From positions 909,691 to 973,690 of the forward strand of contig CAVRJA010000014.1 in the NCBI GenBank assembly GCA_963721405.1: a stretch of DNA of 64,000 nt, given 5' to 3'. Under the pieces are notes generated by a model, which worked only from the letters and a program-made list of their open reading frames with translations, searched no databases and was not told the DNA's origin. Shown in pieces: positions 7,291 to 40,048 of this stretch (within the stretch, counting starts at the first letter, position 1; each line of letters starts with the position of its first letter). The translations under genes were made by a program, and so were the position numbers. This DNA comes from an uncultured Acidobacteriota bacterium (GTDB lineage: Bacteria; Acidobacteriota; UBA6911).

Positions 7291-7599
7291 AGAGTGTGTC
7301 GAATGGTTGATCCACGTCTGACGAGGCCCGAAGGGCCGGCAGTGCATAGGCCCGGCCGTCAGGCCGGGATAAGGATAACGAGGCAATTAGCGCCGAAGGT
7401 GCGGCACAAAATGTCCGGAAGTGCATTGAATGTGCCGGCCCTTCAGGCCTCGCTCTCCAGCGTGCCCGAACCCCGCGCTGACGCGCGGGGCGCTTCAATG
7501 CCGGCGCTTCGCGCATCCCCCCAGCTTGCATCTCAACCGTTGCCTACCCCTCATCAGCCCGACGCCTCGCGTCGACCATCTAATCCCCGTATCTCAAGC

Positions 7600-7665
7600 T
7601 GGTCCGACTCCCCAACCCCTGTCCCCCAACACCTGACACCCGGCACCCAACACCCGGCGCCTCCG
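7600..7665. repeat. GC-rich tandem repeat array, inverted copy of 7195..7290
   Basis: ccccaacccctgtcccccaacacctgacacccggcacccaacacccggcgcc is the reverse complement of the GGTGCC/GGGTGTT motif family. Together with 7195..7290 it brackets a roughly 310-bp hairpin-rich segment. Confidence 0.7.
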
Positions 7666-7707
7666 CGGCGATGATCCTTGGTAATATTGGTGGTACAGGA
7701 GCGGCGG

Positions 7708-27486: not shown

Positions 27487-29274
27487 CTAATTCTTCTGTG
27501 CCGAGACCGTGCCCCAGCCCAGGGGGTTTTGAACCTGGCCGGTCATGTGGCGACCGTCGGGTGATACTTCGAGAGTGAGATTTGCCGGGATTGGCGGAGG
27601 AAGGGAATATCCATCCGCCTGATAACTGCCCCGGGAGCAGGTTGCGGTCAGGGTGCGTCCATTCAGGCTGCCCTCACAATCGTACTGCTCGACGATTCGA
27701 CTATGAAGCAGGCCGTCGAGCGCGATCCCCGAATAAGCAGCTAGGCAACTCAACTGCAAACGACTGTTCGCGCCGGTGATCTGCATCAGCCCCCTCACGT
27801 TGGTCGGGGCGACCGTATAAGACCACGCGCCTCCGAGATCCATTGCCGGCGGTGGAGGAGTGATCACCGGGGGAGGAATGCCCGGCGGGGGAGAGTACTT
27901 GGCCCCGGTACCGGCCGATTGAGACAGGATGTACGCGAATATCACCACGATCAGGAGGGCTGCGCCTGAAAGCACGATGATTTTCTTCACCGGCCTCGGA
28001 CGGGGGCCGGGTTCATTCATGAGTGGCGCCGCGCCCGGCGCCTGTTCCCGGCTCATCCTCCCGCGAGCCTCAGCGAGGCACGCCGTCAACCGGGGATGGT
28101 CCGGATGCTGCTGCAGGGCCTGTAGCAGCAAGTTCCGGGCATCCTGAATTCTCTCCTCCCGGAACATGAGCCTTGCCCGTGAGACAATATCATTGACCCA
28201 CGACTCTCCCGCATCTTCAGCCTGCCTGTGTCCCGCTTTCATGAGCGCGCGTTCGGCCTCTTCTGCACCCGGCACCGGGATCGCGGCCATCGCCGCTGTG
28301 GCGGTAGTGCCGGCGAGTTCCTTGCAGAGCTCGCGCGCGCTGGCAAAGCGGTCCTCCGGCTTCTTTTCCAGGCATTTCATGACGATGCGGCGCATCAGGG
28401 GAGACAGCCCCTCGATCTCTTTCGGGGCCTTGTAACGGATCTGAGCCGTGATCTCGCCCGTAGTGAATGGGGGGTCCCCGGAGAGCATCTCGTAGAGCAT
28501 GATGCCGAACGAGTATATGTCGCTTGCTTCCCGGCTCTCGCCATCCAGCTGTTCGGGTGACATATACAGGAGAGTTCCCGAGTCCTGTTGCGAGGTCAGG
28601 CGCGACACCGAGTCGCGGCAGACGCGCGCGATCCCGAAATCCGCGAGTCTGACCGAGCCGTCATTGCCCAGCAGGACGTTCCCCGGCTTCAGATCACGGT
28701 GAATGACTTTCTTCGAATGAGCGTGTTCCAGGCCTTTGCAGATCTCTATGGAGAGGCACCGCGATTCTTCCTCGGGGATTCTCCCTTCGCGGGCGATTCT
28801 GTGGGCGAGGGTTTCGCCTTCCACATATTCCATGACGAGGAACTTCGCCGTTTCCCCGTCCTCGAAATTGTGCAGGCGGATGATGTTCGGGTGCGCGAGT
28901 GTGATGGAGGCCTTGGCTTCGGAAATCAGCCTCCTGACGGAGCCCGGGTCCTGCCTCAGGATGTCGCGCAGCACCTTGACGGCGACCGGCATTCCGAGCT
29001 TCTGGTCCTCGGCCAGGTACACTCGTCCCATGCCTCCGGCGCCCAACTCCCGGACAATCTTGTATCGGCCCGACAGCATGGAACCTGTTTGCAATCCCAA
29101 CTCAGTTGCCGACGAGGCGAGCGCATCCACGGGTCCCGGTCCGTCCCGGCCGGCTCGCATACCGCCGCCGGTTCGTGGGGTCGTGGGCCGCAGTTCGGCC
29201 CTGCAGGAGCAGCAGAAGCGATCTTCTCCGCCGCATTCCGCTCCGCATTGAGGGCAATATCGTGTATCGGTCAT
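27487..29274 (-). CDS. Ser/Thr protein kinase with N-terminal zinc ribbon and C-terminal extracytoplasmic domain
   Basis: MTDTRYCPQCGAECGGEDRFCCSCRAEL. Kinase motifs (GAGGMGRVYLA, HRDLKPGNVLL, DFGIARV). TM (KKIIVLSGAALLIVVIFAYIL). Tandem paralog of the upstream kinase. Confidence 0.9.
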   Translation of the reverse strand: MTDTRYCPQCGAECGGEDRFCCSCRAELRPTTPRTGGGMRAGRDGPGPVDALASSATELGLQTGSMLSGRYKIVRELGAGGMGRVYLAEDQKLGMPVAVKVLRDILRQDPGSVRRLISEAKASITLAHPNIIRLHNFEDGETAKFLVMEYVEGETLAHRIAREGRIPEEESRCLSIEICKGLEHAHSKKVIHRDLKPGNVLLGNDGSVRLADFGIARVCRDSVSRLTSQQDSGTLLYMSPEQLDGESREASDIYSFGIMLYEMLSGDPPFTTGEITAQIRYKAPKEIEGLSPLMRRIVMKCLEKKPEDRFASARELCKELAGTTATAAMAAIPVPGAEEAERALMKAGHRQAEDAGESWVNDIVSRARLMFREERIQDARNLLLQALQQHPDHPRLTACLAEARGRMSREQAPGAAPLMNEPGPRPRPVKKIIVLSGAALLIVVIFAYILSQSAGTGAKYSPPPGIPPPVITPPPPAMDLGGAWSYTVAPTNVRGLMQITGANSRLQLSCLAAYSGIALDGLLHSRIVEQYDCEGSLNGRTLTATCSRGSYQADGYSLPPPIPANLTLEVSPDGRHMTGQVQNPLGWGTVSAQKN

Positions 29275-29346: not shown

Positions 29347-30711
29347 CTATGTTGTGTTGGCCCTCATCACCATCGGCGGGACGGGCTTGAAGCCTTCGTT
29401 CCGGGCGGACAACACATCGATGGCGCACATGAGCCGATCCGGATCGCTCAGGCAGTACTTCGCCTCATCAATACAATCTTTGAATTTTTTCAGAGGTGTC
29501 AGCGTGAAGGTGGTGGAATTCAGCGGCAGCCATGCGCCGCTGGAAACCAGTTTCTCCACGGCCTCGGGATTCGTGACGGCGGCCACAGGACAATTCTGTT
29601 CCACAAGCCAGGCGCCGAAGAACGCGTGCCCGCGGAGCAGAAAAACAAGCGGATTCAATCCCATGCGTTCCACGCAGGCCGCGCACAGCAGCGCCAGGTC
29701 CAGGCAGGTGCCCCGGCGGTGCTTGAGGATCTGTTCCGGGAAAAAGACTTTCTGGGAAAGCGTATTGCTTCCGTCTGGCAGAATTTCCGGCATCTCGAAA
29801 CTCGGCGGCGGATTGATGTAGGTGAGCTGCAGATCCATCTGCAGGGTGAGGAAGAGGGCTTCGAGCATCTGTGTCACCTTCTTGGGATCCCCGGACTGAT
29901 AGCCGTCGAGCGCCGTCTCCCGGTACTCTTTCTTCAGCCGGTCGCGGACGAGCGACACGATCTGCTCCACGGACTCTGAATTGGGTTGAACGAAGCAGGC
30001 CATGATTTCCTGGGCCTCGGGGTGGTAGTACCACTCGTTGTACGCCAGGACCTCCAGGGGATAGGTCTCCGAAATCTGGAGATTCCCCTCGGTGAAGACA
30101 TCGATCCTGAGATTGGCTTTCTCGGCCTCGCGCACTTCCTGCAGACGGGACTTTGTCAGAGGGACGACGATCTTCGTCTGGACGTGGCTCTGTCCGGGCG
30201 GGATGGACGGCAGCGTTTTCTGCCAGGGCTCGCCGTAATCGGTGGCCACCCAGGCTTTGATCAGCACGTCGTTCGCGGCCTCGCTGGAGAGGTTGCGGAT
30301 GGTCAGAGACGGGATGAGCGGCATGCCGCAGTGCGCGAGTGCATAATTGAGGCGGGGCAGCGGCTGAACCTGGAGTTCGAGGTTGTGGGTCGTGACTCGC
30401 CTAAAAGCCGGCGTTGCCTTGAATGTGGTGTCGAGTTTCGGCATTTCGCGGCTCAGGTCGGACAGGGTCGGCAAGCCGGCTCTGAATTGTCTGAGCGCGG
30501 CGCGGCTCTGCTGGAAGGAGCTGTCACGGCCGCTTCGCAGCTTATCGAGCGCGCTGCCGCCTGCGCCGGGAAGTGCGCTCTCCGGAGCTCCCGAAGGCAT
30601 CCCGGAAGTCTGGGGTGGAGCCTGTTTGGGGCGCGGTTCGCCGCAGGAAACACAGAACTTGCCGGCCGGGTCATTCTCGGCGTGGCACTTTGGACAATTC
30701 CAGTTTGGCAT
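29347..30711 (-). CDS. zinc-ribbon protein with C-terminal transglutaminase-like cysteine-protease domain
   Basis: Start at the internal Met giving MPNWNCPKCHAENDPAGKFCVSCGEP. C-terminal TGase-core pattern (RRGTCLDLALLCAACVERMGLNPLVFLLRGHAFFGAWL). Confidence 0.75.
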   Translation of the reverse strand: MPNWNCPKCHAENDPAGKFCVSCGEPRPKQAPPQTSGMPSGAPESALPGAGGSALDKLRSGRDSSFQQSRAALRQFRAGLPTLSDLSREMPKLDTTFKATPAFRRVTTHNLELQVQPLPRLNYALAHCGMPLIPSLTIRNLSSEAANDVLIKAWVATDYGEPWQKTLPSIPPGQSHVQTKIVVPLTKSRLQEVREAEKANLRIDVFTEGNLQISETYPLEVLAYNEWYYHPEAQEIMACFVQPNSESVEQIVSLVRDRLKKEYRETALDGYQSGDPKKVTQMLEALFLTLQMDLQLTYINPPPSFEMPEILPDGSNTLSQKVFFPEQILKHRRGTCLDLALLCAACVERMGLNPLVFLLRGHAFFGAWLVEQNCPVAAVTNPEAVEKLVSSGAWLPLNSTTFTLTPLKKFKDCIDEAKYCLSDPDRLMCAIDVLSARNEGFKPVPPMVMRANTT

Positions 30712-30782
30712 TACGGATCCCCCGTTAGTCTGACATGTGCTCCACCCGGCGACACGGGTGAATGACAAAAAGAACGAACCAC

Positions 30783-30885
30783 GAAGACTCAAAGACCTCA
30801 AAGACGGCCGGTGTGGAGAGCCTTAGAGCAAGGCTGCCCCTGCGGAGGAAGCGACAGCCCCCGCCTTTGAGGTCTTCGAGTCTTT
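30783..30885. promoter_or_regulatory. long imperfect inverted repeat in intergenic or leader region
   Basis: GAAGACTCAAAGACCTCAAAG (30783..30803) pairs with CTTTGAGGTCTTCGAGTCTTTGAGG (30865..30885), with about a 60-nt loop. The flanking GAACCACGAA motif is shared with the 19414 hairpin. Confidence 0.5.
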
Positions 30886-30940
30886 GAGGCTTGGAGGTTC
30901 TCCAATAGTCAACGACTCATGTTGTCGTGCAACACCCTGG

Positions 30941-33061
30941 CTACTCATAAAACTTGTGGCCGCAGTTGTCACAGAACTTGTTTCCCTCCATGGTTTTCAG
31001 ATGGCACTTGGGACAGACGACCACCGAGCCGGCGCCGGTTTGGGACATGCCGGCGGTCTGAATCACGCCTGAGCCCGGGGTGATCACCATGGTTCCGGGC
31101 TGGGCGGAACGAGCGGCAGCCGTGGCCGTGTCGCGCTGGGTGTCCATGCCGCGGTTGTACATCTCCTGCATCATGTGCGCATACTCGCGGCTCATATCCT
31201 TGAGATCGGCGAAGCCCTGGTCCTTTATGGCCAGCATGCGGTCGTAGGCTTTCTGAACCTCCGCCGCGGTGGCGCCCCGGAATTTCTCCTGGAAGGCCTT
31301 AGCGACTTCCGGGCTCTTATCGGCGGCCATGGCAAGAATCTGCTCCTCGGACAGGCCTCGCAGATTTTCGGCGCGCTTCAGGTCGGCCAGCATGGCGGCA
31401 CGGTCCGCGGGGGCCGCCGCGATCAACGCTTCCGCCGACAGGTTCGAGAGCGCCTGGATCCTGGCGAGTTCCTGGGCGTGCCGTTGCGACTCCTCTCTCA
31501 TGGCGATTTCCGACCTGGCCGCCTGCTCGCGCACGGTGCGGTCCGTATCCCAGTCCGCTTCCTCCCTCTTGGTCTGCTTCATCTGCTTCAGGATTTCGAT
31601 GGCTTTCTGGGCTTCGATCGCATCGAGCTCGATCTGAGATAAATGTTCCTTCCTTTCGAGTTCGATCTCCGTTTCCTTTTTCGTCTTTCCGAGCCTGATC
31701 GCCGTTTCCGCTTCGAGCTGCTTCGCGGCCACATCCTGCTGGATCTTCGCCCACTCCGATGCCTGGCGCATCTCCACCTCTTTGCGCTGCGCGGCCAGTT
31801 CATGCTCCAGCTGCGCCATCTCCTCGGCGCGGACGGATCCGGCGACCGTCTGGTTGAGGGAAATCTTGCCCGCCAGCGCGGCACGCGCGAGGTCCGTGTC
31901 CTGCTCGACCTTCAAACGCTGAATCAAATGCGCCCTTGCCAGATCGTGATCCTCCTTCTTTTCGCCGAAATCCTGGGTCAGGACGCGCATTTCCTCGGCG
32001 CGCAGGAGCTTGTCCTTGTCGATGGACTGCAGGAACTTTTCCAGCTCCACCTCGTTGGTCACCTGGTTCATTTCATTGGATGAGACTGCCTTCCGCATGC
32101 GCTCGAACACCCGGGCACGATCCTCGTACACCTCCAGCTGCATGAGCGCCTTGGCCGTCTCCTGGTCCAGCAGCCTGCGATCCAGTCCTGTCTGGGAACC
32201 CTCGCCGGCGAGCTTGGTTTCCAGGTCCTGGGCGTTCAGCCAGTACTCTTCCCTCTTGTCGTTGAGCGCGTCCAGCCGCGGGTGCCGGAAATCGAAAATC
32301 CGGATCTGAATGAACGACAGTCCCTTCCTGTCGAAAGTGGTTGCGAGATGCTGCGCCACTCCCTGCTCCATCTGCTGCTTGACCGCCAGGCTTGTCGACA
32401 GCTCCTGGACCGACCTGCTGCCCACGAACTCCATCAGGCAGTTGCGCAACTCCCCTTCGAGGAAACCATTCAGCTCGTTCAGCGAGTAGTTCTGCCGCCC
32501 CTTCATCATGTTCTCGAAAAACAGGGTGGGATTGTCCATCTGGACGACCAGCCTGCACTCCGCCTCCAGCCTGATGGGATCACGAGTCGTCAGGCCTGCG
32601 AGCGAGAACTGCAGTTCCACGTCGCCCGTATCCACGAGCACGGCCGTCGTGGTCTTGTAATTGAAGATATTCTGGATTCGCTGCAGCACCCCCCCCATGT
32701 CGTATCTGCCGGGGTCGAGGATCCCGGAACAGGCGCCGTTTACGAAAAAGATCGCCCGGGTGCCGGCTTCCACGACGAGGCCCCTCTTGAAGAGCCCCTC
32801 CACATCGTCGACCTCGACCCTTGTGGCGAAGTCTTCAACCCGGCGGGCCCACCGGTTCCCCGTCAGTCTGGGGGCTGCGCTTTCAGAAAGGGGCTTGCCG
32901 CAGTTGCCGCAATACGTCCTGTCTGCAGGGACCGTGGCGCCGCAGCTGCTGCATTTGAGCTCTGATCCGGGCAGGCGCTCGCCACAGTTGCCGCAGTAGC
33001 GCGAGCCCTGCTTGTTTCTGGCATTGCATTTGGGACACTCAACCTGAAATAGGGGAACCAT
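30941..33061 (-). CDS. double-zinc-ribbon + SPFH(band-7)-like + long coiled-coil protein with C-terminal zinc ribbon
   Basis: N-terminus MVPLFQVECPKCNARNKQGSRYCGNCG...CSSCGATVPADRTYCGNCG. SPFH-like segment (AIFFVNGACSGILDPGRYDMGG...TAVLVDTGDVELQF...RLEAECRLVVQMDNP). About 350 aa of heptad-rich coiled coil. C-terminal CPKCHLKTMEGNKFCDNCG. GGAGG RBS. Confidence 0.75.
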   Translation of the reverse strand: MVPLFQVECPKCNARNKQGSRYCGNCGERLPGSELKCSSCGATVPADRTYCGNCGKPLSESAAPRLTGNRWARRVEDFATRVEVDDVEGLFKRGLVVEAGTRAIFFVNGACSGILDPGRYDMGGVLQRIQNIFNYKTTTAVLVDTGDVELQFSLAGLTTRDPIRLEAECRLVVQMDNPTLFFENMMKGRQNYSLNELNGFLEGELRNCLMEFVGSRSVQELSTSLAVKQQMEQGVAQHLATTFDRKGLSFIQIRIFDFRHPRLDALNDKREEYWLNAQDLETKLAGEGSQTGLDRRLLDQETAKALMQLEVYEDRARVFERMRKAVSSNEMNQVTNEVELEKFLQSIDKDKLLRAEEMRVLTQDFGEKKEDHDLARAHLIQRLKVEQDTDLARAALAGKISLNQTVAGSVRAEEMAQLEHELAAQRKEVEMRQASEWAKIQQDVAAKQLEAETAIRLGKTKKETEIELERKEHLSQIELDAIEAQKAIEILKQMKQTKREEADWDTDRTVREQAARSEIAMREESQRHAQELARIQALSNLSAEALIAAAPADRAAMLADLKRAENLRGLSEEQILAMAADKSPEVAKAFQEKFRGATAAEVQKAYDRMLAIKDQGFADLKDMSREYAHMMQEMYNRGMDTQRDTATAAARSAQPGTMVITPGSGVIQTAGMSQTGAGSVVVCPKCHLKTMEGNKFCDNCGHKFYE

Positions 33062-33187
33062 GGCATGCCTCCAAATCGGTCGCCGATAGGGATTTCGCCT
33101 GGATTGCGATGATAACGGCGAAGATTGCTAAGAGAATCTGAACCTCCTCATCAGTGAGGCTTCGTGCCGCACGTTGCGGCGGTTGCA

Positions 33188-34777
33188 TCACGTAGGCACC
33201 TGTTCGCTTCCGGCCGGCCGGGCTATCCGCAACGAGATCCGGCTGGCCGTGCCGCCGGCATATTGGATGGGAATCTCGTGCGGACCCACCTGCAGGCGGA
33301 ACGAATCCTGCAAGGCGATATCCTGCTCGAAACGGCGGTTGTCCGGCGAGCCGCGCATCTCGAAATGGACCGTGGCGGGCGATTCGTGCTGCCACAGGAA
33401 ACCGTGGCGCCGCGTGGTGATCCTGGTCAGGCGGATCTGCCACAGGCTGTCGCCGTCGAAGATCTTCCAGCCCTCCCCGACGCGCAGCGTGTGCGGTCCG
33501 CGGATCCGCGTCAACGGGTCAAACAGAGAGCAGGGAACGTCACCCTCCTTTGAGATCGCCGACAGGAGCTCGTCAGGCCGGACCGATTTGCCGCCATAGG
33601 ATTGCAGGTACGCGCGTATCTGTTCGCGTTCGTGCGCCGAAAATGGGGAATCTGCGGCTTCCACGGCGTTGCGGCGAAAAATCTCGTTCATGCGCTGGGT
33701 GATGTCGACGGGGCCCTGTGTTCCCCCGTTTGCAGGATCCAACGCCTCCAGCAACAGTTCGTGTTTGCGCTTCCACACCCGGAGTTTCTCCTCCAGGACA
33801 TTCAGCTCTGCCTGTACGAGTTCCTGCCGCAGCGCTTTTCCCTTGAGCGTGCGTTCCTGCTCGATGGCGCGCACGGCAGCTTCGTGTTCGGCCTGGTCGC
33901 GTATCTCTTCCAGTTTTCCCGCCAGGACCGCCTGCCGGAGGGCGCCGCGCACCTTGTTGCGCTCCACTTCCCGTCTCGCGGCTTCATTCTCCAGGGCAAG
34001 GTCCCCGTACTCCCGGAAGAGCTGGTCAAGCACGGGGCTGAACAGTCTCAGGCTGGTTACCTGCAACACATCGCATACGGATCCTCTCAAAGCGTCCTGA
34101 AGCCATTGCAGCGCCTGCCCGCTCCATTTGGCCTGTTCGTCCGGATGCTGGTAGGCCTCCTCCGCATTCATGGACGAAACCCACTGCCGGGCGGGAAGGG
34201 ATACTCTTGAGGCGACATTTTCCGCGATCTGTTCCGGCGAGAAGGAGATTTCATTCAGGGTGGAGGCCGTGAGACGCGAGGAATCGATCTTGAAAACCGG
34301 GCGGATTTCCAGCTGCATCGGCTGATGGTCGCGGGCGAAAAGATCTCTCAATTGGAGCACCACAGGAAACTCGGCGTTGCGCCAGACGATGGCGCGCGCG
34401 TTCTCCCCCAGGCCCATGGAGGCGATCATTTTTGCCACATCCCGGCGTCCGTATTGCCCGGGTTCCAGTTCGCGCTGGATAACTCCGGCATCCAGCACCA
34501 CGGCGCGCCATCCCCAGTCGACGGTAAATCCAGGCTGAGACTTGTCCAGTTTGAATGTGCGGATCACATCGCCTTCGGGCAACGAGGGGCGAAACGGTTC
34601 TCCCGGCGCCTCGACCATCCCCGCGGTCCGTTTGATGAGGTGGACGAGTTTTCTCCAAAAGCCGAGTATCAGGCTCATCGCAATCGTAGTTGCGATTGCG
34701 AGCGGGAGATTCTGCTTGAGCTTGAGCCAGAGATCCTGGAGCTGATCCAGCCACCACGAGTCCATAGTGAACTCCAT
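33188..34777 (-). CDS. membrane-anchored SPFH-like / coiled-coil protein
   Basis: N-terminal TM (LPLAIATTIAMSLILGFW). SPFH-like region (GFTVDWGWRAVVLDAGVIQRELEPGQYG...EFPVVLQLRDLF...LEIRPVF). Long Ala/Glu/Arg-rich coiled coil. Globular C-terminal domain. Confidence 0.6.
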   Translation of the reverse strand: MEFTMDSWWLDQLQDLWLKLKQNLPLAIATTIAMSLILGFWRKLVHLIKRTAGMVEAPGEPFRPSLPEGDVIRTFKLDKSQPGFTVDWGWRAVVLDAGVIQRELEPGQYGRRDVAKMIASMGLGENARAIVWRNAEFPVVLQLRDLFARDHQPMQLEIRPVFKIDSSRLTASTLNEISFSPEQIAENVASRVSLPARQWVSSMNAEEAYQHPDEQAKWSGQALQWLQDALRGSVCDVLQVTSLRLFSPVLDQLFREYGDLALENEAARREVERNKVRGALRQAVLAGKLEEIRDQAEHEAAVRAIEQERTLKGKALRQELVQAELNVLEEKLRVWKRKHELLLEALDPANGGTQGPVDITQRMNEIFRRNAVEAADSPFSAHEREQIRAYLQSYGGKSVRPDELLSAISKEGDVPCSLFDPLTRIRGPHTLRVGEGWKIFDGDSLWQIRLTRITTRRHGFLWQHESPATVHFEMRGSPDNRRFEQDIALQDSFRLQVGPHEIPIQYAGGTASRISLRIARPAGSEQVPT

Positions 34778-34808: not shown

Positions 34809-36026
34809 TCAGTTGCTGTCTGCGAACTCCCGGAACCGCAGCACCAGCTTTTTCAGCTTTTCGGTGTCGATCCGGACGCGCCGGAAAGCCTCGTCGAAAT
34901 CCTTTTTCTGCAACGGACGGATTCTGAGCCTGTAGCTTTCGATCGCCTCCCGGCCCGCATCGACGCAGTGCGGAATCTGCCCGTTCAGCTCCTCGACCAT
35001 CACGTTTACAGCCTGGTTCGCCAGCCGCTCCAGATCCCGTCCGCTGAACCACTCCGTGTTGCGCACTACTTCCTGAAGCGGGTAGTCCAGCGCATGCCCC
35101 TCCTTCAGCAACTGGATCTCCAGAATCGCCTTGCGTGCTTCGGCGTCCGGCAGCGGGATATAGACGCGCTTCTGAAAGCGGCTGAGAATCGCGTCATCCA
35201 GATCCCAGGGCGCGTTGGTGGCGGCGATCGTGAGCACGAACCGGTCCTCGCCCTTGTCCGCCAGCCCGTCGAGTTCCGAGAGAATGGTGGAGAGCATCCT
35301 CCGCTCCGCCCCGCTCTCCGAGCCCTCTCCGCGCGCCAGGCACAGCGACTCGACTTCATCCACAAAAATGACCGCGAATCCCTCGTCGGCTTCGCTGCGC
35401 GCGGCGTTGAAGAGTGCCGTGACCAGCTTGGACGACTCGCCGAAGTATTTGGAGAGCAGGTTGCTGGCCTTTACGTTGAAGAAGGTCGCACCCAGGCCGT
35501 TGCTCGTAGCCGCCGCGAGCAGGGTCTTGCCCGTTCCCGGGGGGCCGTAGAAGAGCATTCTGCGCCAGCCCGAGAGCTTCACGTTTTCGGGCTTCTGCGC
35601 AAGCGCCAGGCCGTAAGTGAACTTGATCTCCCGCTTGGTGGCCTCGAGGCCCCCGATCTTATCCCACGTCACCTTGCTGCGATGAATCAGCGACGCGATT
35701 TCGTTCGTGTACTGCTGCTCGTCATCCTCTGGAGCGCGCTCCCGCACCTTGTCGCCCGGCCCCTGTGATGGCGGCGCAGACGGGAGCACTCTTCGCTTGC
35801 CGGCTTTCAACGCTTCTGCAATCTCGAGATACTGGCGGGACTTCTGCCTTCGACGCATCTGATCCTCACGCGTCAGCGCGTAGTCGGCATAGCTTCTCAT
35901 CAGCTTGGCCGCCTTCGTATAGGTTGCGGAGGCTTCGGCGCCCTTGTTCTGCGATTCCAGCGCCCGGGCCTCGGCCAGAGTTTTATCGAGAGACACCTTG
36001 AGGGGACCGCTCAGGTCGACATCCAT
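34809..36026 (-). CDS. MIT-domain AAA+ ATPase, Vps4/katanin-like (meiotic clade)
   Basis: N-terminal three-helix MIT-like region (LDKTLAEARALESQNKGAEASATYTKAAKLMRSYADYALT...RQYLEIAEALKA). Walker A GPPGTGKT. Walker B FVDEVES. Vps4-like ATNAPWDLDDAILSRFQKRVYIPLPD. Confidence 0.85.
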   Translation of the reverse strand: MDVDLSGPLKVSLDKTLAEARALESQNKGAEASATYTKAAKLMRSYADYALTREDQMRRRQKSRQYLEIAEALKAGKRRVLPSAPPSQGPGDKVRERAPEDDEQQYTNEIASLIHRSKVTWDKIGGLEATKREIKFTYGLALAQKPENVKLSGWRRMLFYGPPGTGKTLLAAATSNGLGATFFNVKASNLLSKYFGESSKLVTALFNAARSEADEGFAVIFVDEVESLCLARGEGSESGAERRMLSTILSELDGLADKGEDRFVLTIAATNAPWDLDDAILSRFQKRVYIPLPDAEARKAILEIQLLKEGHALDYPLQEVVRNTEWFSGRDLERLANQAVNVMVEELNGQIPHCVDAGREAIESYRLRIRPLQKKDFDEAFRRVRIDTEKLKKLVLRFREFADSN

Positions 36027-36050: not shown

Positions 36051-36680
36051 TTAGTCGTCATCGCTGATCTTTTCGGCTTTGATGGCTTTGTCGATCTCCT
36101 CGTGGAATCGGGACAGGTCCTCATCGTCGGTTCCGGTCTCCTCCGCCTTCGCCATGTCTCCGATGGCTTTGTCGAAGTCGGCAAAGCCTACGTCCTCTTT
36201 TACTTTTCCCTGAGTGACTCCCAGTTCCTCCTCACCCAGAATCTCCTCCAGCATGTCGTTGAAGGTGTCGTCGTCGACCTCGGCGGAGTCGATGGCCTTC
36301 TGGATGGAGCTGTCTTTGAAGCGCACGATCAGGTTTTGAAGGCTCTTGCGATCCTTCTTTTTCTCCAGCATCTCCATTTTTCGCAGGAAGGAAGTGAGTG
36401 CCGTCTTGGCCAGGGAGAGGCGCCGCAGGTCGCTGTTGACGTATCCGTTGTCGATTTCCACCTGCCTCATCTCCCGGAAAATATCCCGCAACACCTCCTG
36501 TTTGCCCCCCTTCTTGGCGACGACCGCCTCCTTTACCTTCTGCTGCTTGCGCTGCTCCATGACATCGAGGTCGCGCCGCTTCTTTTTCTGATCGCGCTCG
36601 ATCTCCTTGAGCTGAACACGGATATCCGCCGCATTGGGCGACTTGCTGAACAATTTGTCTAGCAGATTCATGACTCTCAC
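36051..36680 (-). CDS. Snf7/ESCRT-III-like coiled-coil protein with acidic C-terminal (MIM-like) tail
   Basis: 209 aa. Basic N-terminal helices (KEIERDQKKKRRDLDVMEQRKQQKVKEAVVAKKGGK). Central region similar to Snf7 alpha4-5 (IQKAIDSAEVDDDTFNDMLEEILGEEELG). Acidic end DDEDLSRFHEEIDKAIKAEKISDDD. 24 nt downstream of the MIT-AAA ATPase gene. Confidence 0.7.
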   Translation of the reverse strand: MRVMNLLDKLFSKSPNAADIRVQLKEIERDQKKKRRDLDVMEQRKQQKVKEAVVAKKGGKQEVLRDIFREMRQVEIDNGYVNSDLRRLSLAKTALTSFLRKMEMLEKKKDRKSLQNLIVRFKDSSIQKAIDSAEVDDDTFNDMLEEILGEEELGVTQGKVKEDVGFADFDKAIGDMAKAEETGTDDEDLSRFHEEIDKAIKAEKISDDD

Positions 36681-36707: not shown

Positions 36708-37322
36708 TTAATTCTCCAGGCTCTTCCGGTTTTTCAACGGCTCCTCCCCGGCCTTTATGCCGGGCTCTTCTTTCCTGCCCACGATGCGCTTCTTGATCTC
36801 TTCCAGTCTGCGGCGTTCGGCGGACTCGTCCACGGCGGTGCTCATGTTCGATCCACTCTCTGCCGCCAGGCTTACCCTCTTGTACTCTTCGACGTGGCCT
36901 TCCACCTCATCTACCATGCGGTCGATCTGGTCTTCCCCGACGCCGCGGGATCGCATGGCCTCCATTTCCTGGATCTTGGCGATGAGGTTCAGGTGCAGGT
37001 TTACGTTTTCGTTGTAGATCAACACCTGTTTCCCGAGGTTGGCGCGCTGCTTTTCCAGCCGCTCGATCCGCCGCAGGATGATGGTCTCTTCCGTCGGCGT
37101 GAGTTCGCCCCGCCGGATCGAGTTTTCTTCCGCGGTGACGGCCTTTTCGAGGCCGATCAGTTGCTCCTCGTTTTCGCGCAGCTCGATCTCGTTCTGCGCG
37201 CGAAGCGTTTCCAATCCCTTGATGAGATCTCTCGGGCTCGCCGCATCCTGGTAGAGCCGGCGCGTTTCGTCCGGCAGATCCGTTCGCTGGAACAGGCTTC
37301 TCAGTTTTTCCATCACAGACAT
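36708..37322 (-). CDS. Snf7/ESCRT-III-like coiled-coil protein (paralog 2)
   Basis: 204 aa, all-helical, heptad-rich. MSVMEKLRSLFQ N-terminus resembles CHMP N-termini. Region ...IDRMVDEVEGHVEEYKRV... resembles the ESCRT-III alpha5 pattern. Acidic or basic mixed C-terminus. Confidence 0.55.
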   Translation of the reverse strand: MSVMEKLRSLFQRTDLPDETRRLYQDAASPRDLIKGLETLRAQNEIELRENEEQLIGLEKAVTAEENSIRRGELTPTEETIILRRIERLEKQRANLGKQVLIYNENVNLHLNLIAKIQEMEAMRSRGVGEDQIDRMVDEVEGHVEEYKRVSLAAESGSNMSTAVDESAERRRLEEIKKRIVGRKEEPGIKAGEEPLKNRKSLEN

Positions 37323-37330
37323 GATTCCTC

Positions 37331-40048
37331 CTACCGGATAGATCTTTGGATGTAAGTCTTCCCTTTGTGATCGAGAATCTGAAAGCGTCCGCCGGCGACT
37401 TGAACGGCGGCCGCTGCCGACTGGCGATCCAGATTGTGCTCGGCCAGGAAGGAAGCCATCGTCACCGATTCCCCCGGCAATGCCAGCCTGGGGTGATCCG
37501 ACAGCGCCTTTTCGGCGCGGACCCTCTTCTCCCCGCAGGTCTCCGGATCGAACAGGTCACGGAGGGGGCTTTCGTGGCCAAACACGATCCAGGATGTACC
37601 TTCGCCTTTTTCGACCAGGTAGAACAGCGCGTTGCCGCGCGCCTCGGCGTGCCTCTTCCAGTCTTCCGGCCACCCCGTGGGGGAGAAGATCCCGACGCAA
37701 TAGAAGTCCTGGTCCGTGAAAGCCAGGCCGCCGGGGCCCATGATTTCCTGCAGGATGCTATCCGCACCCTGGAGGCCTGCCCCGCCTGGTGCGAGAGCCT
37801 CGAGGTCCCGCCTGACGGCAGCCAGGATGAAGCGGTTCTTCTTTAACAGTCCGGCAGCCAGGGCAAACTGGGTCACGCCGCCGAATGATCTGCGGAAGGA
37901 CTGGCCCTGCGATTTCGGGTCTATTTCGAATTCTTCCCCGCTCCATGGGTGTATCACGCGTCCCGCGTCTCGCACCTTGAGATCAAACCGATTGATGAAG
38001 GTGTCGCCCCAGCAGGGAACCGGCGCCATCGGAGGGGGCTGGGACCGGAGATCGTGCGTCGTCATGCGGGGGAATCCCTCCGCCGTGAGGCCCGGCCTCG
38101 TGGAAGCAGCCGCCTGCGACGGAAGAAAGACCGGGTCCCTCGCTGCCGCGGCGCCCGAAGCCCTGGGCGCCGGCGCCGGGGACATTTCGGGCGTGGAGGC
38201 GTTCTCTTTGTGTCTCTCGCATGAGCGGTGGCCGAGTTGCCAGCAGATCCGGCATATCGGGGCGCCGCATTCGCGGCATTCCCAGACCGGCGAAAACACG
38301 CCGACTTTTGTCAGGTAGCGCTTTCCGCATCGATAACAGACATCGGGCTCGAAGCCCACGGGCGCCGCGGGCGCGGCCCGGGCCGGAACAACTTCCGGCT
38401 CGTCCACCGCAGGCACGGATCTCACCTCCGCGGGCGCCGGAGCGGCGGCTCGCGACGAGTGGATGTGCGCCGGGGCGCGGCGCTGCGCTTCCCGGCCGGC
38501 TTCCGTCATGTTCACCAGTCCATGTCCCACCTGCATGTCACTGGCATACTCCTGGCCGTCGGGGCCTTTCAGGGGACGGCATGCGAAATAAAAAAGGTCG
38601 ACCAGGTCGGCGGGAGTCGGTTCCCAGCCGAGTGAGCGCAGGATTGATTTGAGCAGCACCAGGCAGCCAGCGATCGCCGGCGTTGCCATGCTGGTGCCCG
38701 AGAGGCGCACGTGGCTCTTGTCCACCACTTCGGATGCGTCATAGCCGGCTGTGGAGGATCTGGCGGCGACCACATCCACGCCGGGTCCCACACAGTTGGG
38801 CTTGCCGAATAACGGTGATTCGGGATTTGCGCTCCCCTGAGCGGAAAACGCTGCCAGGAGTCTATTCTTGTCTATGGCGCCCACCGTCACGGCGGTAGGG
38901 CAGTCCGCGGGGACGCAGATCGACTCCGGGTAGGACGGCATCGGGTTGCCGGCGGCCACGCACACCACGGTCCCCTTGCGGAAGGCTTCGGCGCAGGCCT
39001 TTGACCAGATCGATTGTCCGTTCGGCGTCGTATCCATCTCTCCCAGCGAGAGGCTCAGGATGTCGGCCTTCTTCTCTACAACGGCCCACGCCATGCCCCG
39101 GAGAATCGATTCGAGATTGCCGGCCCTACCGGGGGATAAAACCTTGCCGGCGATCAGGCGGCAGCGCGGCGCGATTCCCGAATACCTGCCCCCGAGGGTC
39201 GTGTCGTCGCCGGCTGCGATGGAGGCAACGTGGGTCCCATGCCCGTCGACGTCTTCCTCCCCGCTGAGGGTGAAATCTTGATAGTCCTCGTGGGATATCC
39301 TGGAGAGTGCCGGGTGGCTGCGGTCGACGCCGGTGTCGAGCACGGCGAGTGTGACGTCCTGGCCGAATTGCGCCATGATGTCGGGAGTGACTCCGAGGAT
39401 CTCCCGGCTTTCCACCATCATGGTGGTGACCGCCATTGGAGCGGGCGCCGTTACGGGGGTCAGCGGATCGGCGACGATCCCCGCCTCGGGCAGGCCGGCA
39501 ATCTCGCGCACGAAACTCATCTCCGGCGGGCAGGTGAGCTTTACGATGCCGAACTGCTCCAGGAGCTCTGCCGGCAGAAGGGCGAACCCCTGGGAGACCA
39601 GGCGGCTCTTGAGCTTCTCCATCGCGCCCGGATCCTGCGACATGCACAGGACCGCGGGCCACTTTTCAGCGGGCACCAGGTCGGAATAGCAGCGCATCGA
39701 TCCGCCGGGATCGTTGCGGACATTTTCCGGGGCGGCGATGTCACGGAGGTCGGAATCCAGGTGCTCCTGCAACCTCGAGGCCAGGGCCATTTCACCGACG
39801 CCCTGTCCGCGAAGCCCGGAGACCACGGTCGAATAACGTTCGTAAGCGTCGCCCCGGATTACCCTGCGGTTGATGACACGGTCGACGCGCAGCCGTTCCT
39901 TCTCGTCGTATTCACGCTCCTCGATGCGTTCGTCGATCACCTCGAAACGCAGGGCGGCCTCGGCTTGCTGAGCAATGACCTGGCGCCGCCTCGCTTCCAG
40001 CGACTGCACCAGGAACGAATGAATCTTCGCATCGACTGCATTGTTCAC
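37331..40048 (-). CDS. subtilisin-like serine protease (peptidase S8) with embedded zinc ribbon and large C-terminal domain
   Basis: Catalytic triad blocks VAVLDTGVD (Asp), DGHGTHVASIAAG (His), SGTSMATPAIAG (Ser). Insert CYRCGKRYLTKVGVFSPVWECRECGAPICRICWQLGHRSCERH. Stop overlaps the upstream gene (40045..40048). Confidence 0.85.
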   Translation of the reverse strand: MNNAVDAKIHSFLVQSLEARRRQVIAQQAEAALRFEVIDERIEEREYDEKERLRVDRVINRRVIRGDAYERYSTVVSGLRGQGVGEMALASRLQEHLDSDLRDIAAPENVRNDPGGSMRCYSDLVPAEKWPAVLCMSQDPGAMEKLKSRLVSQGFALLPAELLEQFGIVKLTCPPEMSFVREIAGLPEAGIVADPLTPVTAPAPMAVTTMMVESREILGVTPDIMAQFGQDVTLAVLDTGVDRSHPALSRISHEDYQDFTLSGEEDVDGHGTHVASIAAGDDTTLGGRYSGIAPRCRLIAGKVLSPGRAGNLESILRGMAWAVVEKKADILSLSLGEMDTTPNGQSIWSKACAEAFRKGTVVCVAAGNPMPSYPESICVPADCPTAVTVGAIDKNRLLAAFSAQGSANPESPLFGKPNCVGPGVDVVAARSSTAGYDASEVVDKSHVRLSGTSMATPAIAGCLVLLKSILRSLGWEPTPADLVDLFYFACRPLKGPDGQEYASDMQVGHGLVNMTEAGREAQRRAPAHIHSSRAAAPAPAEVRSVPAVDEPEVVPARAAPAAPVGFEPDVCYRCGKRYLTKVGVFSPVWECRECGAPICRICWQLGHRSCERHKENASTPEMSPAPAPRASGAAAARDPVFLPSQAAASTRPGLTAEGFPRMTTHDLRSQPPPMAPVPCWGDTFINRFDLKVRDAGRVIHPWSGEEFEIDPKSQGQSFRRSFGGVTQFALAAGLLKKNRFILAAVRRDLEALAPGGAGLQGADSILQEIMGPGGLAFTDQDFYCVGIFSPTGWPEDWKRHAEARGNALFYLVEKGEGTSWIVFGHESPLRDLFDPETCGEKRVRAEKALSDHPRLALPGESVTMASFLAEHNLDRQSAAAAVQVAGGRFQILDHKGKTYIQRSIR

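What the first reader, a model, noticed from the sequence alone, without database searches (positions are those of the whole stretch)
30941..34777. Two SPFH(band-7)-like coiled-coil proteins, one capped by double zinc ribbons at both ends
The 30941..33061 product starts with two tandem zinc ribbons (CPKCN...CGNCG, CSSCG...CGNCG). It then has a band-7-like domain, about 350 aa of continuous Glu/Ala/Arg/Lys coiled coil, and a terminal CPKCH...CDNCG ribbon. The 33188..34777 product has an N-terminal TM helix, an SPFH-like domain and a coiled coil.

SPFH proteins organise membrane microdomains. Their placement directly downstream of the ESCRT-like genes suggests a scaffold that recruits the remodelling machinery. 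The domain combination DZR + SPFH + giant coiled coil is unusual.
Basis: partly seen in the sequence, partly recalled or inferred. Interest (0 to 1): 0.6.

Follow-up and report, generated by a model that had tools for sequence, protein, structure and literature searches.

The report
Paired SPFH scaffold proteins, ESCRT-like operon
Two neighbouring genes in an uncultured soil bacterium (probably Acidobacteriota) really do encode membrane-scaffold (SPFH/flotillin-like) proteins, one of them studded with zinc ribbons. They sit at the end of a conserved operon that also encodes Snf7-like and Vps4-like proteins, a pairing so far described mainly in archaea and eukaryotes.

Summary
The 30941-33061(-) gene encodes a 706-aa soluble protein. 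It has two N-terminal zinc ribbons, an SPFH domain (Pfam Band_7 47 bits; Foldseek top hits all stomatin, prohibitin, erlin, HflK/C or flotillin), a segmented helical region of about 350 aa, and one C-terminal zinc ribbon (single, not double).

Both genes end a tightly packed run of genes (43435 to 30941) that looks like one operon. That run also encodes:
- a Snf7-like protein;
- two AAA ATPases whose best NCBIfam match is archaeal CdvC/Vps4 (one carries Vps4_C);
- two more helical proteins of about 200 aa;
- an S8 protease.

Synteny with this module is kept in 6 of 9 distinct loci, down to 40% identity. A Ser/Thr kinase lies within 10 kb in all 9. A zinc-finger/transglutaminase-like partner follows immediately downstream in 7 of 9.

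The closest precedents are B. subtilis YdjI (a soluble SPFH protein with a zinc finger that recruits PspA) and the archaeal 'Meth_adaptin' SPFH+CC+ZnR protein. I read the pair as a membrane-anchored SPFH hetero-scaffold for an ESCRT-like remodelling machine. That function is inferred, not shown. It is a new variant of a known kind.

The parts
30941..33061 (-). 706-aa soluble protein: double Zn ribbon + SPFH + long helical region + single C-terminal Zn ribbon (YdjI/flotillin-like)
   Evidence: ORF. Pfam DZR, Zn_Ribbon_1 and Band_7 all above GA. AF2 model plus Foldseek hits only SPFH proteins. 39-member family with conserved architecture.
32900..33037 (-). Two tandem N-terminal zinc ribbons (Cys 9/12/23/26 and 37/40/51/54), spacing C-x2-C-x10-C-x2-C
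   Evidence: Pfam DZR residues 9-55. The Cys are conserved in all homologues that cover the region.
32273..32776 (-). SPFH (Band_7) domain of the 706-aa protein, residues ~96-263
   Evidence: Band_7 47.2 bits. TM-score up to 0.81 to isolated stomatin SPFH domains.
31109..32164 (-). Helical Glu/Ala/Arg/Lys-rich region, residues 300-651, segmented; includes the conserved block 541-593
   Evidence: DSSP on the AF2 model. Composition. Conservation. Foldseek aligns 538-587 columns to flotillin chains.
30962..31015 (-). Single C-terminal zinc ribbon (Cys 683/686/697/700)
   Evidence: Invariant in 39 of 39 homologues.
33188..34777 (-). 529-aa membrane-anchored SPFH paralogue: TM helix (~24-41; nt 34655-34708), SPFH (65-246; nt 34040-34585), 98-residue helix (248-345; nt 33743-34036), unidentified all-beta C-terminal domain (427-518; nt 33224-33499)
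   Evidence: Paralogy to the 706-aa family: hhalign probability 96%, 275 columns.
34809..36026 (-). AAA ATPase #1 (405 aa), Vps4/CdvC-like, with an MIT-like N-terminal helical domain
   Evidence: Pfam AAA. Best NCBIfam hit CdvC, 2.4e-52. Best single-domain PDB hits are katanin and Vps4B, ~1e-47. The only PDB hit of the N-terminal profile is the Vps4B MIT region, E 5.8.
36051..36680 (-). 209-aa helical protein (the public call is 206 aa, starting at MNLL); candidate ESCRT-III-like subunit, very highly conserved
   Evidence: 127 homologues at 58-97% identity with no Pfam domain. Only 65 representatives among 1.84 billion proteins. Weak co-linear CHMP3 and Snf7 signals.
36708..37322 (-). 204-aa helical protein, aligned at 26% identity with the 209-aa family; candidate ESCRT-III-like subunit
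   Evidence: Alignments. No Pfam hit.
37331..40048 (-). 905-aa protein: S8 subtilase + Cys-rich segment + C-terminal ~225-aa domain. That domain is a stand-alone gene in related loci.
   Evidence: Peptidase_S8 1.7e-41. The C-terminal domain aligns with L004:4053-4748 and L005:5070-5783.
40045..40755 (-). 236-aa protein of unknown function between AAA#2 and the protease
   Evidence: ORF. No family hit. Genes of 189-196 aa occupy the same position in L009 and L010.
40762..41907 (-). AAA ATPase #2 (381 aa), Vps4/CdvC-like, with the Vps4 C-terminal oligomerisation helix
   Evidence: AAA, AAA_lid_3 and Vps4_C 22.1 bits (GA 21.3). CdvC is the best NCBIfam hit, 2.1e-63, covering 82-366 of 370.
41934..42536 (-). 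200-aa Snf7-like (ESCRT-III family) protein
   Evidence: Snf7 Pfam hit, co-linear but below GA: E 0.27 for the window protein and 1.5e-4 to 3.6e-3 in orthologues. Profile's top PDB hit is yeast Snf7, E 0.0075.
42557..43435 (-). 292-aa CsgG-like protein, first gene of the cluster
   Evidence: CsgG 20.3 bits, just below the GA of 20.8. CsgG/FlgO-like genes recur in L006, L007 and L009.
29347..30711 (-). 454-aa partner protein (from M31 of the 484-aa ORF): RanBP2/NZF-type zinc finger plus a domain with invariant transglutaminase-like Cys/His (GTCLD...GHAFFG). The domain is homologous to the N-terminus of 'anti-phage protein ProA'.
   Evidence: NCBIfam NF058533, E 5e-75, residues 122-449 against positions 1-317 of 1903. 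Homologues lie immediately downstream of the DZR-SPFH gene in 7 of 9 loci, at 46-62% identity where aligned. The zinc finger matches ArnA and Nup153/Nup358 RanBP2 fingers.
27487..29274 (-). 595-aa receptor Ser/Thr kinase: N-terminal zinc ribbon, kinase, TPR, TM, extracytoplasmic domain
   Evidence: Pkinase 7e-54. Sequence.
24836..27400 (-). 854-aa receptor Ser/Thr kinase: N-terminal zinc ribbon, kinase, TPR, TM, FGE-sulfatase-like domain
   Evidence: Pkinase 3e-54 and FGE-sulfatase 6.5e-50.
30778..30890 (-). Long hairpin followed by a U-rich tract, ~50 nt after the stop of the 706-aa gene; probable terminator that ends the operon
   Evidence: MFE -69.2 kcal/mol, z -5.15, 0 of 200 shuffles as stable. 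The arms are unique in the window.

Best explanation
The two genes encode paralogous SPFH proteins that most likely co-assemble into a flotillin/HflKC-type oligomeric scaffold on the cytoplasmic face of the inner membrane.

The 529-aa protein supplies the membrane anchor through a single N-terminal TM helix. Positive residues follow the helix, so the SPFH domain is predicted to be cytoplasmic.

The 706-aa protein is soluble, like B. subtilis YdjI. It carries zinc ribbons where SPFH proteins normally have their membrane anchor (N-terminus) and at the tip that forms the cap of SPFH cages (C-terminus). I infer that these ribbons are docking modules. The same ribbon type heads both receptor kinases, the downstream transglutaminase-like protein and another neighbouring protein.

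The SPFH genes are the last two genes of what looks like one operon. That operon also encodes a Snf7-like protein, two further ~200-aa helical proteins and two Vps4/CdvC-like AAA ATPases.

By analogy with YdjI, which brings the ESCRT-III-superfamily protein PspA to the membrane, the SPFH scaffold would mark or organise membrane sites where the ESCRT-III-like polymers assemble. The ATPases would then disassemble them. Transmembrane Ser/Thr kinases (plus FHA proteins in related loci) would provide the input.

Shown: domain identities, paralogy and conserved synteny. Inferred: hetero-oligomerisation, topology, the docking role of the ribbons, and the link to membrane remodelling or repair.
For: - SPFH identity of both proteins.
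- Specific paralogy that extends into the first helical segment, as in the HflK/HflC, PHB1/2 and flotillin-1/2 pairs.
- One protein has a TM helix and the other has none.
- Tight spacing from 43435 to 33188 (gaps of -4 to 31 nt), then a 126-nt gap, then a strong terminator-like hairpin right after the 706-aa gene.
- Synteny of DZR-SPFH with the '~200 aa x2 + AAA ~405 aa' module in the window, L004, L005, L006, L007 and L009, at 66% down to 40% identity.
- Snf7-like and Vps4/CdvC-like assignments.
- The cluster sits next to the same amidohydrolase gene in the window, L004, L005 and L010.
- The ~200-aa proteins are 75-97% identical across metagenomes. This fits conserved cell-biology machinery better than fast-evolving defence genes.
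- Precedents: YdjI is soluble, has a C-terminal zinc finger and is required for PspA membrane foci (PMC8581546). PspA + Band-7-ZnR + 2xZnR operons are described (PMC11237479). An SPFH+CC+ZnR protein occurs in archaeal Meth_adaptin ESCRT loci, and STK/FHA are linked to archaeal ESCRT loci (PMC10936438).
20 of 39 members hit Band_7_1.
Against: - No experiment or complex prediction supports hetero-oligomerisation.
- The 204- and 209-aa proteins adjacent to AAA#1 show no significant ESCRT-III similarity. They show none to the Snf7-like 200-aa family either.
- MIT in AAA#1 is only hinted at.
- Three DZR-SPFH loci (L001, L002/L003 and the P0030 contig) have no AAA or ~200-aa genes within 10 kb. The SPFH protein can therefore exist without an adjacent ESCRT-like module.
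- Its most constant neighbours are the kinases and the ZnF/transglutaminase-like protein.
- In L009 and L007 the TM-SPFH paralogue is not recognisable next to it.
- The helical regions of the two paralogues differ greatly in length, which complicates a simple 1:1 cage.
Confidence: 0.55

Rival explanations
1. The cluster is a conflict system (anti-phage or programmed cell death). The AAA ATPase + S8 protease pair (IetAS-like), the transglutaminase-like/ProA-N-like protein and the kinases would sense and execute. The SPFH proteins would gate or sequester a membrane or protease effector.
For: - AAA#1 hits PADLOC IetA at 2.4e-32, and the S8 protein hits IetS at 8e-9 and a subtilase model at 8.5e-25.
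- The 454-aa partner shares a ~320-aa domain with NCBIfam 'anti-phage protein ProA' (5e-75) and with plasmid-borne giant helicases.
- Related locus L002 holds a caspase-like Peptidase_C14 and other peptidases. A PemK toxin gene lies near L006.
Against: - The IetA/IetS scores are far below the equivalog cut-offs (104.7 against 510; 19.7 against 900). They are what any classical AAA or S8 enzyme would give.
- The protease domain is absent from L004 and L005, while the rest of the cluster is kept.
- Neither SPFH protein hits any PADLOC model.
- The chromosomal neighbourhood is stable across MAGs and the small helical proteins are under very strong purifying selection. Both are atypical for defence islands.
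Confidence: 0.2
2. The SPFH pair is a protease-regulating cage, like HflK/C-FtsH or stomatin-NfeD. Its client would be the neighbouring transglutaminase-like cysteine peptidase or the S8 protease. It would be functionally independent of the Snf7/Vps4-like genes.
For: - Known SPFH cages enclose proteases (HflK/C-FtsH, QmcA-YbbJ), and these are among the structural hits.
- The ZnF/transglutaminase-like protein, with invariant Cys and His, is the most constant immediate neighbour: 7 of 9 loci.
- The 529-aa protein has an extra C-terminal beta domain that could play an NfeD-like role.
Against: - No NfeD, FtsH/M41 or other known SPFH client family is detected in the cluster.
- Whether the transglutaminase-like domain is a peptidase at all is untested.
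Confidence: 0.15
3. The SPFH pair is a generic flotillin-like microdomain organiser for the receptor Ser/Thr kinases (a signalling platform). Its adjacency to ESCRT-like genes would have no mechanistic meaning.
For: - A Ser/Thr kinase lies within 10 kb of the DZR-SPFH gene in all 9 distinct loci, including the three that lack the AAA module.
- The kinases share the same N-terminal ribbon type as the SPFH protein.
Against: - The SPFH genes sit in the tightly spaced gene run with the AAA and ~200-aa genes, and a terminator-like hairpin separates them from the downstream kinase genes.
- Synteny with the AAA module persists down to 40% identity.
Confidence: 0.1

Closest known systems
B. subtilis YdjI (SPFH protein of the pspA-ydjGHI operon; Pfam Band_7_1 / COG4260-type)
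   Same: Soluble SPFH protein without a membrane anchor. It has a zinc finger at the C-terminus. It is encoded with an ESCRT-III-superfamily gene and with a separate zinc-ribbon protein, and it needs membrane-integral partners (PMC8581546, PMC11237479). 20 of 39 family members hit Band_7_1.
   Different: The window protein scores below GA on Band_7_1 (19.3 against 24) and better on Band_7. It adds a double N-terminal ribbon and ~350 aa of helices. Its partner genes are Snf7-like plus Vps4/CdvC-like ATPases, not PspA/YdjG/YdjH. It has a TM-anchored SPFH paralogue.
SPFH + coiled-coil + zinc-ribbon protein of archaeal 'Meth_adaptin' ESCRT loci (Makarova et al. 2024, PMC10936438)
   Same: The same three-part architecture, and the same genomic association with Vps4 and ESCRT-III genes. 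Archaeal ESCRT loci are also linked to membrane Ser/Thr kinases and FHA proteins.
   Different: Those loci are archaeal and include adaptin-appendage, GOLD and ProX proteins, which were not detected here. I could not retrieve the archaeal sequences, so direct homology beyond the shared domains was not tested. [quoted passage not shown]
Flotillins (FloT/YuaG, flotillin-1/2) and HflK/HflC, prohibitin-1/2, erlin-1/2 hetero-cages
   Same: SPFH domain followed by long wall-forming helices. Two adjacent or paired paralogues. Foldseek aligns more than 500 columns of the 706-aa model to flotillin chains. The 529-aa protein has an HflK/prohibitin-like N-terminal TM anchor.
   Different: No Pfam flotillin C-terminal domain is detected and there is no hairpin anchor on the 706-aa protein. 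No FtsH or NfeD client is present. The zinc ribbons at both ends and a C-terminal beta domain are not features of these families.
Archaeal Cdv / ESCRT-III-Vps4 systems (context genes)
   Same: One Snf7-like protein next to an AAA ATPase that has a Vps4_C helix and CdvC as its best NCBIfam match. A second Vps4-like ATPase is preceded by two small helical proteins with acidic C-terminal halves.
   Different: All scores are below family thresholds except Vps4_C. MIT is not demonstrated. No CdvA or ESCRT-I/II homologues were recognised. The host is bacterial.

Membership tests
SPFH / Band_7 superfamily | Match to the Band_7 profile (PF01145) at or above the gathering score | tested here: met
   706-aa protein: 47.2 bits against GA 23.6. 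529-aa protein: 23.9 against 23.6, which is marginal. 38 of 39 homologues of the 706-aa protein hit Band_7. Most homologues of the 529-aa protein carry no precomputed Band_7 hit.
SPFH / Band_7 superfamily | SPFH alpha/beta fold followed by a long helix | tested here: met
   [not shown]
SPFH / Band_7 superfamily | Assembly into large ring- or cage-like oligomers on a membrane | not testable with these tools
   No multimer prediction or experiment was available. Inferred from the family.
YdjI-type SPFH (Band_7_1, PF13421) | Match to the Band_7_1 profile at or above the gathering score | tested here: not met
   The window protein scores 19.3 bits against GA 24. 20 of 39 relatives match at E<1e-3. 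This is a related protein, not a clear member.
YdjI-type SPFH (Band_7_1, PF13421) | Soluble (no TM), with a C-terminal zinc ribbon | tested here: met
   Maximum hydropathy 1.1. The C-terminal CxxC...CxxC is invariant in 39 of 39.
YdjI-type SPFH (Band_7_1, PF13421) | Operon with pspA, ydjG and ydjH | tested here: not met
   No PspA_IM30, TPM or YdjG-like hit among the cluster proteins. Snf7-like and AAA genes are present instead.
Flotillin | Flotillin C-terminal domain / membrane hairpin anchor | tested here: not met
   No flotillin-domain Pfam hit at E<=0.1. No hydrophobic hairpin in the 706-aa protein.
HflK/HflC or stomatin-NfeD modules | Partner FtsH (AAA + M41 peptidase) or an NfeD gene | tested here: not met
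   The cluster's AAA proteins lack a peptidase domain and rank CdvC above FtsH. No NfeD hit in any neighbour.
ESCRT-III (Snf7, PF03357): context gene 41934-42536 | Match to the Snf7 profile at or above the gathering score | tested here: inconclusive
   The window protein gives E 0.27 (11.3 bits). Orthologues give 17-22 bits against GA 27.3, co-linear over profile positions 4-136 of 171. Yeast Snf7 is the top PDB hit of the family profile, E 0.0075.
ESCRT-III: context genes 36051-36680 and 36708-37322 | Detectable homology to Snf7/CHMP/PspA | tested here: inconclusive
   There are only weak co-linear hits: CHMP3 E 0.63, Snf7 in 2 of 30 members (best 0.02) and hhalign probability 18%.
Vps4 / CdvC: context genes | Single classical AAA domain plus the Vps4_C helix; N-terminal MIT domain | tested here: inconclusive
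   AAA#2: Vps4_C 22.1 bits against GA 21.3, no MIT tested. AAA#1: no Vps4_C, and MIT only at E 5.8 (PDB Vps4B) and 0.16 (Pfam, 1 of 7 members). CdvC is the best NCBIfam hit for both but far below the 650-bit cut-off.
IetAS anti-phage system | IetA and IetS equivalog-level matches | tested here: not met
   NCBIfam IteA 104.7 bits against 510. IteS 19.7 bits against 900.

The most novel reading that the evidence does not exclude
Vicinamibacteria-type Acidobacteriota carry a vertically inherited ESCRT-like machine. It would consist of a Snf7-family subunit, two further divergent ESCRT-III-like subunits and two Vps4/CdvC-type ATPases, hard-wired to a two-component SPFH cage and to receptor Ser/Thr kinases. 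This mirrors the archaeal ESCRT-SPFH-kinase associations. If so, Vps4+ESCRT-III systems are not confined to archaea and eukaryotes. The SPFH-ESCRT partnership would then either be older than the archaeal-bacterial split or have crossed it as a whole module.
Probability: 0.35. Interest if true: 0.8.

Novelty: new variant of a known kind. Interest (0 to 1): 0.6.

Why it matters
SPFH proteins and ESCRT-III polymers are two of the few membrane-organising systems shared by all domains of life. Their functional coupling is known from one Bacillus operon and is inferred for some archaea.

Recent reviews and surveys state that a Vps4-like ATPase working with ESCRT-III is absent from bacteria (PMC7619361, PMC10936438). 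Some transfers of Vps4-like ATPases, and some bacterial Snf7-AAA neighbourhoods, have been noted (PMC11237479).

This locus puts a paired SPFH scaffold, a Snf7-like protein and two Vps4/CdvC-like ATPases in a single conserved bacterial cluster. It therefore offers a compact system to test two things: how SPFH cages position ESCRT-III-type filaments, and how far the ESCRT toolkit extends into bacteria.

The zinc ribbons replace the usual SPFH membrane anchor and recur on every signalling partner. They form a testable docking code.

Tried and rejected
- Single-sequence phmmer of both SPFH proteins against PDB sequences gave nothing relevant. Structure was needed.
- PADLOC has no model matching either SPFH protein.
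- The 209-aa family against PDB and Pfam gave no ESCRT-III hit. hhalign against single Snf7 or CHMP1B sequences gave nothing.
- hhalign found no similarity between the 200-aa Snf7-like family and the 204/209-aa family. I therefore do not claim three paralogous ESCRT-III genes.
- The N-terminus of AAA#1 alone against PDB gave no hit.
- Two literature searches for the 'ProA' anti-phage protein found nothing usable.
- No paper in the held library links Acidobacteria with Vps4/ESCRT-III, except an unrelated monograph.
- The afdb50 fold library was unavailable.
- The window's own contig could not be retrieved by exact look-up, and the cluster look-up returned no names. The taxon is therefore inferred from relatives: an Acidobacteriota MAG and Vicinamibacterales.
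- The consensus promoter/terminator scan was at chance level.
- There are no tRNA genes in the window.

Full report
**1. What is there**

The minus strand between 43435 and 24836 carries an unbroken series of genes. The two ORFs in the finding are exactly where stated.

The 706-aa product (30941-33061) is identical to a protein already called in public data (P0001). The 529-aa ORF (33188-34777) is called publicly from its fifth codon (P0040).

Pfam places DZR (50.7 bits), Zn_Ribbon_1 (51.4 bits) and Band_7 (47.2 bits, residues 96-259) on the 706-aa protein. It places Band_7 only marginally (23.9 against a threshold of 23.6) on the 529-aa protein.

The family of the 706-aa protein is small: 39 clusters among 5.8 billion, with identities from 80% down to 27%. 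Its architecture is constant. 38 of 39 members hit Band_7, 38 of 39 hit DZR and 39 of 39 hit Zn_Ribbon_1. All twelve zinc-ligand cysteines are conserved wherever the column is covered. The C-terminal four are invariant.

**2. Structure**

The AlphaFold2 model of the 706-aa protein (pLDDT 73.5) shows:
- two small ribbons;
- an SPFH alpha/beta domain;
- a helical region from about residue 300 to 651, broken into about ten helices, the longest being 408-477, 485-539 and 599-651;
- a disordered linker;
- a terminal ribbon.

Against the PDB, Foldseek returns only SPFH proteins for the first 46 ranks: stomatin, prohibitin, erlin, HflK/C, flotillin and QmcA. TM-scores against isolated SPFH domains reach 0.81, and alignments to flotillin chains exceed 500 columns.

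The model of the 529-aa protein (pLDDT 76.4) shows:
- an amphipathic N-terminal helix;
- a hydrophobic helix (about residues 24-41; KD 1.59);
- an SPFH domain (65-246);
- one uninterrupted 98-residue helix (248-345);
- short helices;
- an eight-stranded beta domain (427-518).

The 706-aa protein has no TM segment.

The two families are specific paralogues. hhalign gives probability 96% over 275 columns that run from the SPFH domain into the first helical stretch.

The C-terminus has one ribbon, not two. The helical region is not one continuous coiled coil. The second protein has an extra beta domain.

**3. Surroundings**

In transcription order, upstream of the SPFH genes:
- a CsgG-like protein (42557-43435);
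- a 200-aa protein (41934-42536);
- AAA ATPase #2 (40762-41907);
- a 236-aa protein of unknown function;
- an S8 subtilase with a C-terminal extra domain (37331-40048);
- a 204-aa and a 209-aa helical protein;
- AAA ATPase #1 (34809-36026).

Gaps between these genes are -4 to 31 nt. A 126-nt gap precedes the 706-aa gene.

About 50 nt after the stop codon of the 706-aa gene lies a long hairpin followed by a U-rich tract. Its MFE is -69 kcal/mol, its z-score is -5.15, and 0 of 200 shuffles fold as stably. Its arms are unique in the window. I read it as the operon terminator.

Downstream follow:
- a 454-aa protein (29347-30711, counted from M31 of the ORF);
- two receptor Ser/Thr kinases, each with an N-terminal zinc ribbon, a kinase domain, TPR repeats, a TM helix and an outer domain. 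One outer domain is FGE-sulfatase-like.

**4. Are the neighbours ESCRT-like?**

AAA ATPases:
- Both have archaeal CdvC (Vps4) as their best NCBIfam hit, ahead of Cdc48, PAN, FtsH and IteA (2.4e-52 and 2.1e-63). All hits are far below the equivalog cut-offs.
- AAA#2 has the Vps4 C-terminal oligomerisation helix above Pfam's threshold.
- The best single-domain PDB matches of AAA#1 are katanin and Vps4B.
- The only PDB hit for a profile of the AAA#1 N-terminal domain is the MIT region of Vps4B, at a non-significant E of 5.8. Pfam MIT appears for one of seven relatives at 0.16.

The 200-aa protein:
- It hits Pfam Snf7 co-linearly but weakly (E 0.27).
- Orthologues retrieved from metagenomes reach E 1.5e-4 to 3.6e-3 over profile positions 4-136 of 171, at 17-22 bits against a threshold of 27.3.
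- The family profile's best PDB hits are two yeast Snf7 structures (E 0.0075).
- I regard this protein as a probable remote Snf7 homologue.

The 209-aa and 204-aa proteins:
- The 209-aa family is very conserved, with 127 clusters at 58-97% identity. It is rare, with 65 representatives among 1.84 billion proteins.
- A diverse profile that includes the 204-aa protein finds CHMP3 only at E 0.63. Snf7 appears in 2 of 30 members. hhalign probability is 18%.
- Their ESCRT-III nature is suggested by size, helicity, an 'MxxFxxLF' N-terminus, a (K/R)xGxxxx hairpin-tip-like motif, an acidic C-terminal half and their position before a Vps4-like ATPase. It is not demonstrated.
- hhalign finds no similarity between them and the 200-aa family.

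**5. Is the association conserved?**

Nine distinct loci carry a DZR-SPFH gene with enough flank to judge.
- Six keep the '~200 aa x2 + AAA ~405 aa' module upstream: the window, L004/L008 (an Acidobacteriota MAG), L005, L006, L007 (only 40% identity) and L009. The 209-aa-family protein that brought in L009 is named Vicinamibacterales in one source.
- Three do not have it within 10 kb: L001, L002/L003 and the P0030 contig.
- All nine have at least one Ser/Thr kinase within 10 kb.
- In seven, a gene of about 460 aa lies immediately downstream. In the five loci where I aligned it, it is 46-62% identical to the window's 454-aa protein, and the Cys and His of a transglutaminase-like motif are invariant.
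- FHA, CsgG-like, FGE-sulfatase and peptidase genes recur.
- The TM-SPFH paralogue is present in the closer relatives and in L001. It is not evident in L007 or L009.
- The whole cluster abuts the same amidohydrolase gene in four assemblies.

**6. Mechanism proposed**

SPFH paralogue pairs such as HflK/C, PHB1/2, flotillin-1/2 and erlin-1/2 form mixed cages. In these the N-termini sit at the membrane, the helices form the wall and the C-termini close the cap. This is established from the structures that were hit.

By that template, the 529-aa protein anchors the assembly. Positive residues follow its TM helix, so the bulk of the protein should be cytoplasmic (inference). The 706-aa protein would place its double ribbon at the membrane-proximal rim and its single ribbon at the apex.

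The same C-x2-C-x10-C-x2-C ribbon heads both kinases, the 454-aa protein and a neighbouring plus-strand protein. The ribbon of the 454-aa protein fits the RanBP2/NZF consensus. It matches the ArnA, Nup153 and Nup358 fingers. I infer that the ribbons act as docking modules.

B. subtilis YdjI is a soluble SPFH protein with a C-terminal zinc finger. It needs membrane partners, and it is required for PspA, an ESCRT-III-fold protein, to form membrane foci (PMC8581546). The operon type is catalogued in PMC11237479.

Archaeal Meth_adaptin ESCRT loci contain an SPFH + coiled-coil + zinc-ribbon protein. Other archaeal ESCRT loci carry membrane kinases and FHA proteins (PMC10936438).

The most economical reading is that the SPFH pair organises membrane sites for the Snf7-like and helical proteins. 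The two Vps4-like ATPases would recycle those polymers, under kinase control. I give this reading 0.55.

**7. Rivals**

- A defence or cell-suicide system. The evidence for it is IetA/IetS-like hits, a ProA-like domain and a caspase-like gene in L002. Against it, the Iet scores are generic, the protease domain is dispensable in L004 and L005, no SPFH model exists in PADLOC, and the locus looks vertically inherited and strongly constrained.
- A protease-regulating SPFH cage for the transglutaminase-like or S8 protein. This is possible, but no known client family is present.
- A kinase-signalling microdomain unrelated to the ESCRT-like genes. This fits the three loci that lack the AAA module, but it does not fit the gene spacing and terminator-like hairpin seen here.

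**8. Novelty**

The SPFH identity is ordinary. SPFH plus a zinc ribbon next to ESCRT-III-superfamily genes has precedents.

Four things are new:
- the double N-terminal ribbon in place of an anchor;
- the long helical insert;
- the TM-anchored paralogue with a beta domain;
- the bacterial cluster that combines these with a Snf7-like protein and two Vps4/CdvC-like ATPases.

[quoted passage not shown] PMC11237479 does note transfers of Vps4-like ATPases and some bacterial Snf7-AAA neighbourhoods. I found no description of this Acidobacteriota cluster in the held library, which is incomplete.

Verdict: a new variant of a known kind, with interest 0.6.

Noticed in passing
window 30778-30890 (- strand), with a U-rich tract at 30765-30777: A long imperfect hairpin (outer stem of about 24 bp; MFE -69.2 kcal/mol; z -5.15) lies ~50 nt after the stop of the 706-aa gene and is followed by UUCGUUCUUUUUGU. 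It is a probable intrinsic terminator that the simple scan missed. Its arms are unique in the window. In L004 and L005 the gap after the SPFH gene is only ~44-87 nt, too short to hold such a hairpin.
   Followed up: partly
window 29347-30711 (-): Residues 122-449 of the 454-aa partner protein match the first 317 positions of NCBIfam 'anti-phage protein ProA' (1903-aa model) at E 5e-75. They also match, at ~30% identity, the N-termini of plasmid-borne 'DUF3320 domain-containing protein/DNA helicase' genes of Klebsiella and Raoultella. The region holds an invariant transglutaminase-like Cys...His pair. I found no paper on ProA in the library.
   Followed up: partly
window 30640-30711 (-), N-terminus of the 454-aa protein: The sequence WNCPKCHAENDPAGKFCVSCG fits the RanBP2/NZF zinc-finger consensus W-x-C-x2-C-x3-N-x6-C-x2-C. 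The family profile hits Sulfolobus ArnA (5e-5) and the Nup358/Nup153 fingers (3e-4 to 2e-3). NZF fingers are ubiquitin- and ESCRT-linked in eukaryotes and are uncommon in bacteria.
   Followed up: partly
window 37331-38010 (-), C-terminal ~225 aa of the S8 protease; L004:4053-4748; L005:5070-5783: [quoted passage not shown] It always lies directly upstream of the 204-aa gene. It matches no known family and could be the adaptor of the ESCRT-like module.
   Followed up: partly
window 23703-24707 (+), 24836-27400 (-), 27487-29274 (-), 29347-30711 (-), 30941-33061 (-): Five neighbouring proteins begin with the same C-x2-C-x10-C-x2-C zinc ribbon. The 706-aa SPFH protein and the 334-aa plus-strand protein have it in tandem, and the SPFH protein has it again at the C-terminus. 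This suggests a shared docking module.
   Followed up: no
L029:2264-2830 and L030:210-776: A 188-aa relative (36-38% identity) of the window's Snf7-like protein hits Pfam Snf7 at 2.3e-4. It sits next to a PEGA-repeat/TM/Ser-Thr kinase gene on low-GC, archaeal-looking contigs. This hints that the bacterial Snf7-like gene has archaeal relatives in kinase-linked ESCRT loci.
   Followed up: partly
[not shown]
   Followed up: partly
L007:4841-7468 and 7465-8325; L002:1-679, 3377-5855: In more distant DZR-SPFH loci the neighbours include an FtsW/RodA-transpeptidase fusion, FhaA-FHA, a PBP and an SLT-LysM lytic transglycosylase. This points to a possible link to cell-wall growth or division.
   Followed up: no
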